Assembly (NCBI GenBank): GCA_020137815.1
Contig: CM035357.1
Span: 2,418,001-2,482,000 of the forward strand
Direction: 5' to 3'
Length of the DNA: 64,000 nucleotides
Source: Hormiphora californensis
Taxonomy: Eukaryota > Animalia > Ctenophora
Under the pieces are notes generated by a model that saw only the letters and a list, made by a program, of their open reading frames with translations, was not told the origin of the DNA and did not search any database. Position 1 is the first letter of the stretch, and every line of letters starts with the position of its first letter. The position numbers were made by a program, and so were the translations under genes. Of the stretch, positions 7,732 through 15,699 are shown piece by piece.

Positions 7732-10700
7732 TCACTCCTTGAAGGCGGTTCCTGCTGCAGGTGAGGATTTCCTCGACTCAAACATGGGATTACTTCTCGG
7801 GGCAGGAGGAGGGGGCAGCGGTCCCGGGCCCGGGGGAAGGTGTTGTTGTGGTGTTATCGCGGGGTATTCTTGGTTGTAATACATGTCAGGTGGAGGAAGC
7901 ACTGTATTGGATTTAGGAGGTGGATACATGAACGGCTGTGGCTGCTCTCTTGAACATTTTCCACGTGTAGATCCACTACCACCACGGGAGGACTGAAACC
8001 CTCCTCCTCTTGGTGACGAGGCCCCTCCTCCTCTTTGGGTGGGGTTTCCCATTAGTAGGGGTGGTTTTCTGCCCCCGCCCCGTGATCCCCCGCCCCGTGC
8101 AGTTGCAGGTCCACCATGTATCTGCTCCATGATGCAATTGTCTATGTACCGGCGGTGTGGTGATAGATCACACCCTAACTTGTCCTCCAGCATCTTACGG
8201 ACTTTCTTGGATGTGATCGTGTCGTGGCTGTGCGTCTCAAGAATCGCTCTTATTTCCTGGAGGTGGGAGGTCTTCAGAATACAATTTGTAAATCTTTTAC
8301 TGGACTCAAAATAAAAGTCAATAAAAGTTTTAATCTTAGCTTCGATTACCACATGCACCCGTGTTAGAGGTTTCTGAGTAGATCTATGCTATGGTTTAGT
8401 AAAAAAAGTGCGTAAAACATAGCTCAAACCTGTTTTATGGTGTGTGTTTTCACGACCACTTTATCCTCAACTGGGCACGGAGCTCTTCCCGGTGTCCTCA
8501 CTCTTCGTGGTGGAGGAGTGGGCAGAATGCCACCCTTCCTCCACATCTTAGAATCAGCCGTGTTCTAGAATGGGGGAACTTGGTGGTGATTTTCTTAAAA
8601 TTCACAGCTTTGTTATAATCCCATTTCCCTGCTATAACTCCCCTACTCCCTCCCAAACTCCTTACTCTACCCCAAATTTCCATGTTCCCTCACCCGTCTC
8701 CTACCTCTCTTTCCCATGCCCCTTACCCCCGCCCCTAGCCCGGGAGGAATGTAGGTTACCTTGGCGCTACTCCAGTTATAACCACCATCACTATGTCCCC
8801 CGGTACTGTATGTAGTTGACAGGATAGGTGCTGCGGTGTAGACACTGTTCTGGTCTCGTTTAGAGTTTTGGACTGTTATTGGGGTACCACTACCACCCAC
8901 CACCCGGAGTTGGGATAACACGTTGTTCCGGTCGTGGTTGTTTAGCGTGTTCAGACCCTGGAGAGGGAGAGAAGTGTTAGAGAAGTAAAGGGTGTTCAGG
9001 CCATGGAGAAAAAGAGAGAAGGGTAAGTGTATGTTAGAGAAAGTTACTGATTATAATACTAAATCGATCAATTAGGGATGTCTTTTTTTTTTTTTTTTTT
9101 TATGTCTTCATCGTTCCTATATCTGTCACCCCCCACCACATCATGTGAACCCTGCCAGGCAATTGCTGACCCTATTTGCTTCAATCACGAAGGCAGGTCA
9201 GGCGGGCTAAGTCTGACAGCGTCTATATAACATACATGTGAGGTGGAGTTTGACAGATATCATCTCTGCAGCCATTTAATTGACCTCGGACTTCCGTATA
9301 CTACAAGCACCCAATCTCTGGTGCTCTATGTCTTTTTGACCAATCACGGAAAGTTAGACTAGCAGTATATAGTCAATTAAACTTCTTGGCGTAGCATATG
9401 ACGACACCCTAGAGACTAGTTGAAAAGCAGGGTGTGGAAGCGGGGTCAAATGTTCATGAGCAAGCATGTATATGTTCGTGTGTGAGACGGGAGTGAACGC
9501 CGTGTGCTGATCGTGCAATTTGATAGTGTTCGTGAAAAATGGTTAAGCTCAAGGGTAAAGATATATAGAGAAGGAGAGAGAGAGAGAGAGAGAGAGAGAG
9601 AGAGAGAGAGAGAGAGAGAGAGAGAGAGAGAGAGAGAGAGAGAGAGAGAGAGAGAGAGAGAGAGAGAGAGAGAGAGAGAGAGAGAGAGAGGGGGGAGAGA
9701 GATAGAGAAAGGGATAAATTCAATATACATTATACACCATGTATATAAAGAAATAATCCCGGCTGGCTCCTATCGACATACTGTCCATAGCGAGAGAGAG
9801 AGTGAGTGAGAAAGAGAGAGAGAGAGAGAGAGAGAGAGAGAGAGAGAGAGAGAGAGTGAGAGAGAGAGAGAGAGAGAGAGTGGGGGGGCAGAAGGAGAGG
9901 ACTACCGACCGGATCCACTTTTGCGGGAAAGGACCATCTACCATCTACCCTCGGCCCTGTCTGGAAGATACGGCAGCTGCTGCGGTGCAGCACCATAACA
10001 AACAGCCACCACCACTCCCTAAGCCTCACCCCCCCCCCTCCCCCGGTAATCCCCAGGCGCAAATGTGGGTTCGGTACTCCTCTCTCCAAGGTAAATGGTG
10101 ACCGGAAGAAAAGGCCGGGTAGGTGACGTGGATGAGTGGCTTGTGATGTACGCATTAAGCTGCGGTAAGGTGCTGGCTGAGTTGACTTGCGTGTTGTGCC
10201 AAACTTTGTGTAGATGGTCAGTACCACAGGCTGTTGCACTGTACCACAGGCTGTGGAACTTTCCACCTTGCCTAAGGAACCCTAACCCTCAACCTAACTC
10301 TAACCCTAATCTGACCAAAGACCTTTTGAGATAAATGAATCATCACATAAAACTCGAAACATACCCCACCGCACAGCTACTCTCCCTCTACGACTGTTAT
10401 TGGATTCAGCGAGGCATATATATCCCTATATACCACTATCTACGCGCTCTTCTGCTTGAGAGAGCTCTCTGATCTGCTCTCTCTACTCCTCCTTCTCATC
10501 TCTCTCTCTCTCGTCTCGAGTCTTCATCCCGTTCTTCTTCATAAGGTGGGGATTTAAGGTCTAAGACTTCACTTTTTCACTGCCACTTTTGTTACGCTTT
10601 GCACTGGAAGGACCTCTACCCCCTTATATTTGAAATTTGTTTACATTTGAGAGAGTATCACACATTACATAGTGTGAGAGAAAAGTTTGTGTGTGTATCT

Positions 10701-13700: not shown

Positions 13701-15699
13701 TTCCGAAAAAAGAGAGTGGTCGGGACGGCCCTGGCAGGTTCACCCCGCGCTGGTAAGCGCAGTATAAGGTTGTGCCGTCGGAACTAATGCTATCCCAAAC
13801 TATGTTGTCTAGCTGTACAACCACGCTGCTCTCTCGTGCGACTCTTGATTGAAGAGCAACCATCAATGTTGATATTCAATTAGCAGTCTATATTCATGTG
13901 ACGGAGAGAGCAGGGCTGTGCAGCGTTCGTGTCGAGAAGACAGAGGGCAAGATGGGGCGCGGTGAATTCATGTTTTGTAAGGCAGCCCTTGAGATACCGA
14001 AACAAAGGTTAACTCCTTGCAAAACTATGGATGCGGAGAAGATACGAAAAAAAAGAAAAAAAAGAAAAGTGTTGTATTGTATTGGTGATTATGTGAGCGA
14101 GTGAATGGTTTGTAATAACACTTACCGATAGCCGAATCGGTTGATTTCCAAAAATGAGGGAGAAACAGTTCAAATGATACACCACCATGTCTTGGAGAGT
14201 GTTAACATAGCCAACTGAAATAAAGATATATGGGAATTTAGAAAATAAAATCACTCCCTGATCCCCATCACGGTAATTTACAGTTTTATCAGTTTAACTA
14301 TACAATTATTTACCTAGTTTCAGTGTGTTCAAACTAACAATTATTTACTAAGTTTCAGTGTGTTCAAACTAACAATTATTTACCAAGTTTCAGTGTGTTC
14401 AAACTAACAATTATTTACCAAGTTTCAGTGTGTTCAAACTAACAATTATTTACTAAGTTTCAGTGTGTTCAAACTAACAATTATTTACCAAGTTTCAGTG
14501 TGTTCAAACTAACAATTATTTACTAAGTTTCAGTGTGTTCAAACTAACAATTATTTACCTAGTTTCAGTTCGGGATCTGCTACCACCATGGAACACTGCT
14601 CACAGTAGTGCACACCATTTCCACCTTGCCGTATGTAACCGGCTGCCACTTTAATGTTCTTAGGTAACTCCTTCTCCGGTGTAGACGTTACTAGGGAGGG
14701 GAGTGGGGAGTTAGTAGGTGGAGGAGTGGGGCGTTACTAGGTGGGGGAGGGGACGTTAAAAGGGAGAGGAGTGGGGTGTTAGTAGGGAGAGGAGTGGGGT
14801 GTTACTAGGGGGATGGAGGTTATAATCGGTTACTAGAGGGTGGAGTGTAGACGTTACTAGGGAGGGGAGTGGGGAGTTAGTAGGTGGAGGAGTGGGGCGT
14901 TACTAGGTGGGGGAGGGGACGTTAAAAGGGAGAGGAGTGGGGCGTTACTAGGGGGAGGGGACGTTACTAGGGAGAGGAGTGGGGTGTTAGTTAGTAGAAA
15001 GAGGGCACATTGGAATCAATAGGGAATCACAACTACTCTACTCCAAATTCCAATGATTCTCTTAGTGTTTACCCCGAATTATACTTACTTTTCCTTGCAA
15101 TGTATCGCTTGTGATAGTTATTGAGAGCGTTGAATCCCCAAATATCAGTCTGCTTTTGACATCCTGCACCGTGTGCCGATCTAACAGAAAACAAAGTTAG
15201 TTTTAAATACAATTTGTACTGTATATTTATACAATCGTTAAGTATATAGTTAATTGGGCAATTAATTTTAATTAACCAGATATGGGGTAACTAATTATGC
15301 ACATACAGAAAGAAGCAATCACAATGAATCCACTGTTGTTCAGGGCTATCGTGTCAACCTCATTATAACTGTTCCACTGGGATCGCGTCATTAGAGCCAA
15401 ATCTGCCCTTTTTATCTGTAAATAATTCAATGATTAGTTTTATGAAGGAGCACTGAGCAGTATGCAAAAAAAAACATTTCTAAAGGAGCACCACAACTCA
15501 CCGCAATATGACAGTAAGTACAGACAGTAGAGCCGTCCTTGGAGAGAGCTACAAAGTACTTGTAATTATCGCTGTTCTCCCTGGGAGCAGGCGGGACACC
15601 CCTTGACGGCTGAACACCCCTTCTCTGTGGGGTAGTGGGGTGGTACGGTTCTTCGCTGAAGCTGAACATGTCTTCCTGACCAGCCGGTCCGCCGCTCAT
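7732..15699 (-). CDS. Protein with two PARP-type (CxxC..HxxC) zinc fingers, a DEK-C domain and a Gly/Arg- and Pro-rich tail
   Basis: Exons 15699-15502, 15415-15307, 15180-15089, 14690-14559, 14214-14126, 8957-8760, 8564-8430, 8256-7732. Finger 1 CTYC..IKRADL..WIHCDC..IWGFNAL; finger 2 [32 protein letters not shown]-like [38 protein letters not shown]. Requires two 1-nt indel corrections (~15350, ~14660). Confidence 0.65.
9574..9689. repeat. (GA)n microsatellite; others at ~9813-9880, 20538-20750, 34640-34710, 45466-45592, 47214-47292, 61123-61260, 63190-63249
   Basis: Direct inspection; source of ERER/LSLS ORFs. Confidence 0.95.
10400..13320. other. Probable low-quality (unpolished long-read) assembly segment
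   Basis: Abrupt excess of G/C/T/A homopolymer runs and degraded microsatellites unlike the flanks; ORFs are low-complexity F/P/G/K. Confidence 0.75.
13388..14068 (+). mobile_element. Unclassified A-tract-ended interspersed repeat (related inverted copy ~9083-9880)
   Basis: Starts GGTCTAAGACTT (also at 10558); ends GCGGAGAAGATACG(A)n (near-identical end at 13353-13387); TAGGAGCCAGCCGGGAT block matches ~9756-9772 in reverse complement. Confidence 0.5.
14303..14570. repeat. 35-bp intronic minisatellite containing the exon-4 donor site
   Basis: About 7.5 copies of TTATTTAC[C/T]AAGTTTCAGTGTGTTCAAACTAACAA. Confidence 0.9.

What the first reader, a model, noticed from the sequence alone, without database searches (positions are those of the whole stretch)
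7732..15699. Unusual architecture: two PARP-type zinc fingers fused to DEK-C, no catalytic domain
Seen: the spliced model has two CxxC..HxxC fingers, each followed by a G..L helix motif. The second finger is completed in phase 0 across a 5.2-kb intron ([20 protein letters not shown]), followed by DEK-C, RGG repeats and a Pro-rich tail. Established: zf-PARP domains sense DNA breaks in PARP1 and ligase III; DEK-C is a chromatin/DNA-binding module. Inference: a non-enzymatic nick-sensing chromatin adaptor. I do not recognise this combination. The ORF track shows only fragments of it.
Basis: partly seen in the sequence, partly recalled or inferred. Interest (0 to 1): 0.7.

Follow-up and report, generated by a model that had tools for sequence, protein, structure and literature searches.

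The report
Comb jelly remodelled PARP-finger chromatin protein
A comb jelly gene, longer than first read and shared with at least two other comb jellies, joins two remodelled copies of the zinc finger that PARP1 uses to grip broken DNA to a DEK-type domain and three ordinary zinc fingers, with no recognisable enzyme part; it likely works as a chromatin scaffold rather than a classic break sensor, because most of the known DNA-gripping residues are gone.

Summary
Real, but larger than described. The minus-strand gene has ten exons with GT-AG introns (15699 to 6498, about 780 aa) and does not stop at 7732. After a second frame break near 7767 it runs on into three C2H2/C2HC fingers and a conserved terminal helix. 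Full-length orthologs exist in Mnemiopsis (KAL5266291.1, 814 aa) and Bolinopsis (XP_063685797.1, 727 aa), both unnamed. They support 8 of 9 exon junctions well, including the one across the 5,168-bp intron. DEK_C is firm (Pfam 2e-14). The PARP-type fingers are divergent: Pfam scores them below its cut-off, yet all eight zinc ligands are kept and the Cys-to-Cys spacing (103-104) matches PARP1's 104. A zf-PARP-seeded model matches PARP1 Zn1 at Z 13-14.5. The counterparts of PARP1 R18, R34 and R122 are lost in 3 of 3 species; finger 2 keeps a lysine at the R138 position. The RGG/Pro tract is lineage-specific. No catalytic domain was found. Best reading: a non-enzymatic chromatin scaffold or regulator; nick sensing is the rival. 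The two breaks are probably assembly errors, but no reads were available to settle it. The combination was not found in the papers searched; its parts are all known.

The parts
15502..15699 (-). Exon 1: ATG at 15699; short conserved N-terminal motif; first half of finger 1 (C60-x2-C63)
   Evidence: aligned to P0035/P0039
15307..15415 (-). Exon 2: loop and HxxC of finger 1; holds frame break 1
15344..15353 (-). Frame break 1 (net one base short), between an off-frame TGA and a Pro conserved in orthologs
15089..15180 (-). Exon 3: G..L motif and basic C-terminal helix of finger 1
14559..14690 (-). Exon 4: inter-finger linker and CxxC of finger 2 (C163)
14126..14214 (-). Exon 5: HxxC of finger 2
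8958..14125 (-). Intron 5, 5,168 bp, phase 0, repeat-laden and partly noisy sequence
   Evidence: gap-free junction with orthologs
8760..8957 (-). Exon 6: G..L helix closing finger 2, then low-complexity linker
8430..8564 (-). Exon 7: linker and first turn of DEK_C helix 1
   Evidence: junction i7 gap-free
7667..8256 (-). Exon 8: DEK_C core (about 8256-8122), lineage-specific RGG/Pro tract, frame break 2, conserved IFVD end motif
7766..7770 (-). Frame break 2 (net one base extra); as assembled it gives the premature stop at 7732
   Evidence: P. bachei P0015 follows the other frame
7368..7480 (-). Exon 9: acidic stretch and conserved DISPFAIM motif
6498..7181 (-). Exon 10: three Kruppel-like fingers (C2H2, C2H2, C2HC; about 7031-6783), acidic/basic linker with RKRKR, conserved terminal helix (about 6605-6531), stop at 6498

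Best explanation
The gene encodes an approximately 780-residue comb jelly protein built of two remodelled PARP-type zinc fingers, a DEK_C domain, three C2H2-type fingers and a terminal helix, with no recognisable enzyme domain, and it likely acts as a nuclear chromatin scaffold or transcription regulator rather than as a canonical nick sensor. Shown: the exon chain, domain order, conservation in two lobate ctenophores, and loss of the canonical grip residues. Inferred: the folded modules sit on long disordered linkers; DEK_C and the still-basic finger 1 would hold DNA or nucleosomes without sequence specificity; the third C2H2-type finger may add some sequence reading; fingers 1-2 of that array and the terminal helix would recruit partners or dimerise. 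The tandem PARP fingers were likely taken from a PARP1-like Zn1-Zn2 pair and repurposed.
For: Orthologs with the same domain order: P0035 Mnemiopsis 814 aa (Pfam DEK_C 1.7e-12, zf-PARP 2.3e-5) and P0039 Bolinopsis 727 aa. Identity to Mnemiopsis by region: finger 1 42/85, finger 2 33/83, DEK_C 33/58, C2H2 region 48/88, against 14/79 and 7/43 in the linkers. No catalytic Pfam family at E<=1 in either ortholog. Grip residues: the R18 position is S/S/C, R34 is A/M/M, R122 is V/N/N. R34 and F44 form the backbone grip and base-stacking loop (PMC6135609, passages); R18 and R122 insert into the minor groove (PMC4678113, passages). Basic NLS-like clusters in 3 of 3 species. The C-terminal array matches CTCF/ZBTB-type fingers (best E 1.4e-10). 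Precedent: fission yeast Hpz1 has a PARP-type finger, no PARP activity, is nuclear, and was judged not to be a major repair factor (PMC3435320).
Against: No binding, localisation or expression data. Finger 2 keeps Lys at the R138 position in 3 of 3 species, and finger 1 stays net basic (K+R 10-12 against D+E 4-7), so break binding by another surface is open. The C2H2 array lacks TGEKP linkers, and its first two fingers lack conserved basic recognition residues (read by eye), so sequence-specific DNA reading is uncertain. The confident model was seeded with 32 prokaryotic zf-PARP tandems. The unseeded model had pLDDT 37 and no match at E<=0.001.
Confidence: 0.55

Rival explanations
1. It is a non-catalytic DNA-break sensor. 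The F1F2 pair still recognises nicks or gaps through an altered grip, and DEK_C plus the C2H2 region recruit repair or chromatin factors, or compete with PARP1 at breaks.
For: All 8 zinc ligands are invariant across 34 aligned sequences. Cys spacing is 103/103/104 against 104 in human PARP1 (C21 to C125, read) and 83-95 in 33 prokaryotic tandems. The top Foldseek hit is PARP1 F1F2 on a single-strand break (2n8a, E 1.3e-9, 204 columns). Lys is kept at the R138 position (the role of R138 is recalled).
Against: The R18, R34 and R122 counterparts are lost in 3 of 3 species. No aromatic residue is conserved at the F44 loop, and the finger-2 loop is about 9 residues shorter than that of finger 1. 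Pfam zf-PARP gives only 16.5-25.5 bits against a cut-off of 39.3.
Confidence: 0.25
2. It is an RNA-associated or nucleolar/Pol I factor in which the fingers and RGG tract bind structured RNA or rDNA.
For: Five RGG in the window protein. DEK_C occurs with SWIB in a top hit (P0027), the layout of yeast UAF30 (recalled).
Against: RGG count is 1 in Mnemiopsis and 0 in Bolinopsis, and the whole tract is missing there. No SWIB domain in the orthologs.
Confidence: 0.1
3. The copy in this genome is a young pseudogene or null allele with two real frameshifts. The family would still be real in other ctenophores.
For: Two breaks in about 2.3 kb of coding sequence, whereas the neighbouring DnaJ/RRM gene and the CYP gene read through without a break.
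Against: No in-frame stop in 780 codons once the two breaks are bridged, 9 of 9 introns GT-AG, and all zinc ligands intact. Both breaks touch short homopolymers. Intron 5 holds visibly unpolished sequence (46-47 homopolymer runs per kb against 2-17 elsewhere in the first 24 kb).
Confidence: 0.15

Closest known systems
Human PARP1 Zn1-Zn2 (F1F2; PDB 2n8a, 3od8, 4opx)
   Same: Tandem CxxC..HxxC fingers with the G..L helix and the same Cys spacing (103-104 against 104). Modelled finger 1 superposes on Zn1 at Z 13.3-14.5, rmsd 1.4-1.7 A over 85-89 residues (seeded model).
   Different: No Zn3, BRCT, WGR or catalytic domain. R18, R34, R122 and F44 counterparts are not conserved. About 18% identity. 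Fused to DEK_C and C2H2 fingers.
DNA ligase III-alpha zinc finger (PDB 1uw0)
   Same: Same fold (Z 10.0, rmsd 3.5 A, 94 residues)
   Different: Single finger on an enzyme; here a tandem pair on a protein with no enzyme domain
S. pombe Hpz1 (PMC3435320)
   Same: PARP-type finger without PARP activity, with acidic stretches; nuclear; the nearest functional precedent for an enzyme-free zf-PARP protein
   Different: One finger, 246 aa, with no DEK_C or C2H2 region described. No sequence comparison with Hpz1 was made here.
DEK_C-containing proteins (DEK; DEK_C-SWIB proteins such as P0027)
   Same: Pfam DEK_C above cut-off
   Different: No SAP or SWIB domain found; DEK_C sits centrally between two kinds of zinc finger
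Ctenophore orthologs KAL5266291.1 (Mnemiopsis ACHWQZ_G003644) and XP_063685797.1 (Bolinopsis LOC134819658)
   Same: Same domain order over the full length; both annotated only as hypothetical or uncharacterized
   Different: They lack the roughly 130-aa RGG/Pro insertion after DEK_C and have a longer Ser/Gln-rich linker before it

Membership tests
zf-PARP (PF00645) fold | C-x2-C ... H-x2-C zinc ligands in both fingers | tested here: met
   8 of 8 ligands invariant in alignment A4 (two lobate orthologs and 32 prokaryotic tandems); present in the window model
zf-PARP (PF00645) fold | Pfam gathering score 39.3 | tested here: not met
   Orthologs score 25.5, 24.7 and 16.5 bits, finger 1 only; single window exons give no zf-PARP hit
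zf-PARP (PF00645) fold | Profile similarity independent of Pfam | tested here: met
   hhalign against 149 prokaryotic domains: F1 E 7.7e-4, F2 E 9.3e-4, both 1.5e-5 (79.5%); C2H2 control 0.032 over 8 columns. Shuffles reaching the real HMM score: 2 of 2000 (F1) and 16 of 2000 (F2). ESM Atlas hits at 0.90-0.91, with zf-PARP on 19-32% of cluster members.
zf-PARP (PF00645) fold | Three-dimensional fold, finger 1 | tested here: met
   pLDDT 80-96 over residues 1-90; Z 13.7, rmsd 1.4 A, 85 residues to PARP1 Zn1; next unrelated fold Z 4.8. The alignment was seeded with zf-PARP sequences, so this shows compatibility and is not independent proof.
zf-PARP (PF00645) fold | Three-dimensional fold, finger 2 | tested here: inconclusive
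   pLDDT 52-80. Included in the 204-column match to F1F2 but not folded or searched alone.
PARP1/ligase III-type nick sensors | Backbone-grip and minor-groove arginines (R18, R34 in Zn1; R122, R138 in Zn2) | tested here: not met
   S/S/C, A/M/M, V/N/N; only the R138 position keeps K/K/K (by offset from the first Cys; residue roles, R138 recalled)
PARP1/ligase III-type nick sensors | Base-stacking hydrophobic residue (F44) | tested here: inconclusive
   The loop differs in length and has no aromatic residue shared by the 3 species; the window has W and Y there, and break 1 lies in this loop
PARP1/ligase III-type nick sensors | Preferential binding to nicked DNA | not testable with these tools
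   needs a binding assay
PARP enzymes | ADP-ribosyltransferase catalytic domain | tested here: not met
   no such Pfam family at E<=1 in P0035 or P0039, nor in the 8 window stretches of this gene scanned
DEK_C domain (PF08766) | Pfam score above 24.8 | tested here: met
   53.6 bits, E 2.2e-14
DEK proteins | SAP/pseudo-SAP DNA-binding domain (feature recalled) | tested here: not met
   no SAP hit in the orthologs
Kruppel-type C2H2 transcription factors | Tandem C2H2 fingers | tested here: met
   three fingers in 3 of 3 species; Pfam zf-C2H2 24 bits, just under the 25.2 cut-off; PDB hits CTCF, ZNF568, ZBTB
Kruppel-type C2H2 transcription factors | TGEKP linkers and base-reading residues at helix positions -1, 3, 6 (code recalled) | tested here: inconclusive
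   no TGEKP linker; only the third finger has conserved D/E at 3 and R/K at 6 (read by eye)

The most novel reading that the evidence does not exclude
Ctenophores captured the Zn1-Zn2 DNA-break module of a PARP1-like gene, with its spacing intact, and bolted it to DEK_C and a C2H2 array. The result would be a genome-encoded, enzyme-free PARP1 mimic that reads distorted or broken DNA at chosen loci and competes with or steers PARP1, a possible lead on genome care and regeneration in the earliest-branching animals.
Probability: 0.15. Interest if true: 0.72.

Novelty: new variant of a known kind. Interest (0 to 1): 0.46.

Why it matters
It defines an unannotated gene family conserved across cydippid-like and lobate ctenophores, with a domain combination (2x zf-PARP, DEK_C, 3x C2H2-type) that the paper searches did not find. 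The fingers are a natural experiment: the fold and all zinc ligands are kept while most DNA-grip residues are lost, so a simple binding assay shows what a PARP finger can be repurposed for. It also corrects the gene model, since an automatic annotation of this assembly would split the gene into three pieces. The surprise is moderate: zf-PARP and DEK_C are both mobile domains, and enzyme-free zf-PARP proteins are known (Hpz1).

Tried and rejected
No whole genome is held for this window, so copy number and the state of PARP1 and DEK in this species were not checked. Expression: no RNA holder listed. The one listed run, X1 (share of words 0.00), laid 0 contigs on 7500-9050 at 80% likeness; this is no evidence either way, and exons 1-5 and 9-10 have no read check. 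Two scans of metagenome contigs found no relative. A homolog search with the window's own DEK_C in longer proteins gave 0 of 10 candidates; the orthologs were reached through P0021 (3 of 66 candidates). phmmer with the 55-aa DEK_C against 1.84 billion representatives gave 15 hits at E<=0.001: 1 Pleurobrachia, 5 unnamed ctenophore-like exon fragments, 5 other DEK_C proteins, 4 repeat artefacts; none of the 15 has zf-PARP. This search is too shallow to prove that the architecture is confined to ctenophores. The fold from the shallow alignment failed (pLDDT 37, no match at E<=0.001). A single exon against the PDB gave nothing useful. Profile searches of the PDB were weak: PARP1 best E 0.0068, with V-ATPase chance hits at 0.03; best 0.078, but 4 of 4 hits were PARP-type fingers. 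Fingers 1 and 2 are not detectably similar to each other by hhalign (E 0.13). A 13-nt GT..AG 'micro-intron' at break 1 was rejected by eye, because it leads to a stop. Two separate genes rejected: the orthologs are single proteins and exon 10 starts at a splice acceptor, not an ATG. Junction i6 is only weakly supported (scores 40 and 25). No tree of the fingers was built, because no eukaryotic PARP1 or ligase III sequence was held as a file. No complex prediction was run. Paper searches for the combination: 0 hits; 2 papers unrelated by title and abstract start; PMC2964712 has no 'DEK' or 'ctenophor'. Langelier 2011 was not held. No supplements were read, and no InterPro architecture search was available, so a listing of this architecture in a database or table cannot be excluded.
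Full report
Source. The window is from a ctenophore. Its intronless CYP gene has 14 relatives at E<=1e-40 among 7,998 candidates scored; the three named ones are two EukProt 'sb' proteins (68% and 60%) and one Mnemiopsis protein (43%). An 'sb' protein looked up later is Pleurobrachia bachei. Exon 8 of the gene in question is 89% identical to P. bachei over 143 columns, so the species is likely close to Pleurobrachia. No whole genome is held.

Checking the observation. 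One missing base in exon 2 is enough to open a 492-aa frame. It has two CxxC..HxxC fingers with G..L helices, the phase-0 junction across a 5,168-bp intron, DEK_C (Pfam E 2.2e-14), five RGG and a Pro-rich tract.

The gene is longer. That frame ends in IFVD at a GT donor (7666). Eight of eight read-through fragments checked end in the same [IV]FV[DE]G motif. Exon 9 (7480-7368) and exon 10 (7181-6498) follow in the right phases. With both breaks bridged by N, the ten exons give 780 aa with no internal stop and 9 of 9 GT-AG introns. A search from one fragment found full-length orthologs: Mnemiopsis KAL5266291.1 (814 aa) and Bolinopsis XP_063685797.1 (727 aa), both unnamed. They align in order with the whole model (BLASTP E 3e-45, 4e-16 and 7e-44 for the finger, DEK_C and C-terminal blocks against Mnemiopsis). 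Junctions i1, i4, i5, i7 and i9 align without gaps, i2 and i3 with short gaps nearby, i8 in a local alignment, and i6 only weakly. The folded modules are 40-57% identical to Mnemiopsis and the linkers 16-24%. The RGG/Pro tract, about 130 aa, is missing from both lobate proteins.

Are the fingers PARP-type? Pfam hits finger 1 of the orthologs at E 2.3e-5 to 0.014, below the curated cut-off, and does not hit finger 2. PDB profile searches rank PARP1 and ligase III fingers first but weakly. The ESM Atlas gives zf-PARP clusters at 0.90-0.91, with the family on 19-32% of members. I collected 149 prokaryotic domains by a DNA motif; 8 of 8 sampled hit Pfam zf-PARP, 5 above cut-off. Against them the window's fingers beat all but 2 and 16 of 2,000 shuffles. 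hhalign gives E 7.7e-4 (F1), 9.3e-4 (F2) and 1.5e-5 (both), against 0.032 over 8 columns for the C2H2 control. An unseeded fold of the Mnemiopsis pair failed (pLDDT 37). Seeded with 32 prokaryotic tandems it reached pLDDT 75 (finger 1 80-96, finger 2 52-80). Its top match is PARP1 F1F2 (E 1.3e-9), and finger 1 fits Zn1 at Z 13.3-14.5, Zn2 at 12.2-12.5 and ligase III at 10.0, with unrelated folds under 5. The seeding makes this a compatibility test, not independent proof. The first-Cys spacing is 103, 103 and 104, against 104 in PARP1 and 83-95 in 33 prokaryotic tandems. This hints at descent from a PARP1-like Zn1-Zn2 pair; no tree was built.

Do they sense nicks? In PARP1, R34 and F44 form the backbone grip and base-stacking loop (PMC6135609, passages seen), and R18 and R122 insert into the minor groove (PMC4678113, passages seen). 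Counting from the first Cys, these positions are S/S/C (R18), A/M/M (R34) and V/N/N (R122) in window, Mnemiopsis and Bolinopsis. Only the R138 position keeps Lys in all three (the role of R138 is recalled). No aromatic residue is shared in the stacking loop. Finger 1 stays net basic. Canonical nick gripping is therefore unlikely, though not excluded.

The C-terminal part. Three fingers (C2H2 with a long loop, C2H2, C2HC) are conserved in 3 of 3 species (48 of 88 identical) and match CTCF, ZNF568 and ZBTB structures. They have no TGEKP linkers, and only the third has a conserved base-reading pattern (read by eye; code recalled). An acidic stretch, a basic NLS-like cluster and a conserved terminal helix follow. 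Pfam finds no catalytic family in either ortholog.

Mechanism. Shown: architecture, conservation and residue losses. Inferred: a nuclear, enzyme-free scaffold whose DEK_C and basic PARP-type fingers hold chromatin while the C2H2 region and terminal helix read DNA weakly or bind partners (0.55). That DEK_C binds DNA is recalled; no paper on it was found in the library. Rivals: a break sensor with an altered grip (0.25) and an RNA or nucleolar factor (0.10). Separately, there is a 0.15 chance that this copy is a young pseudogene. The neighbouring DnaJ/RRM and CYP genes show no break, but intron 5 is visibly unpolished, both breaks touch short homopolymers, and nothing else in the gene is decayed.

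Known relatives and novelty. Enzyme-free zf-PARP proteins are known: Hpz1 in fission yeast (PMC3435320; first fifth of the text and passages seen). Unchecked earlier notes of this scan list others in diatoms, Perkinsus and Asgard archaea. I found no paper on zf-PARP with DEK_C, or on zf-PARP in ctenophores (PMC2964712 passages); no supplements were read and no InterPro query was possible. Verdict: a real, conserved, unannotated ctenophore protein; a new combination of known domains; interest 0.46.

Noticed in passing
window 10800-13400: Stretch inside intron 5 with 46-47 homopolymer runs (5 or more) per kb against 2-17 elsewhere in the first 24 kb; looks like unpolished long-read sequence, so the intron length is approximate.
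   Followed up: partly
window 9695-9875 and 13433-13624: Two 73% identical copies of a roughly 190-bp element in inverted orientation near the ends of intron 5, each beside GA/TC microsatellites; possibly transposon ends or a dispersed repeat.
   Followed up: no
window 14296-14569 and 14684-14991: 35-bp (7.8 copies) and 23/68-bp tandem arrays fill introns 4 and 3 and overlap the exon 4 donor and acceptor, making decoy copies of both splice sites.
   Followed up: partly
window 16078-17260 (-): Intact three-exon DnaJ + RRM-like gene (DNAJC17-like, name recalled) ending about 380 bp upstream of the finding's ATG on the same strand.
   Followed up: partly
A recent duplicate or an assembly haplotig.
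   Followed up: partly
window 34789-36297 (+): Intronless cytochrome P450 whose close relatives include Pleurobrachia-type and Mnemiopsis proteins.
   Followed up: partly
window 25844-28490 (+): Reverse-transcriptase-like and GIY-YIG-like ORFs with one frameshift, Penelope-like by eye (label recalled, not scanned).
   Followed up: no
window 1670-2026 (-): Another C2H2 zinc-finger exon 4.5 kb downstream of the gene, not part of it.
   Followed up: no
L002, L006, L009 and others: Tandem zf-PARP pairs are frequent in Myxococcota and other bacteria: 33 of 120 loci held an in-frame pair, spaced 83-95 residues.
   Followed up: partly
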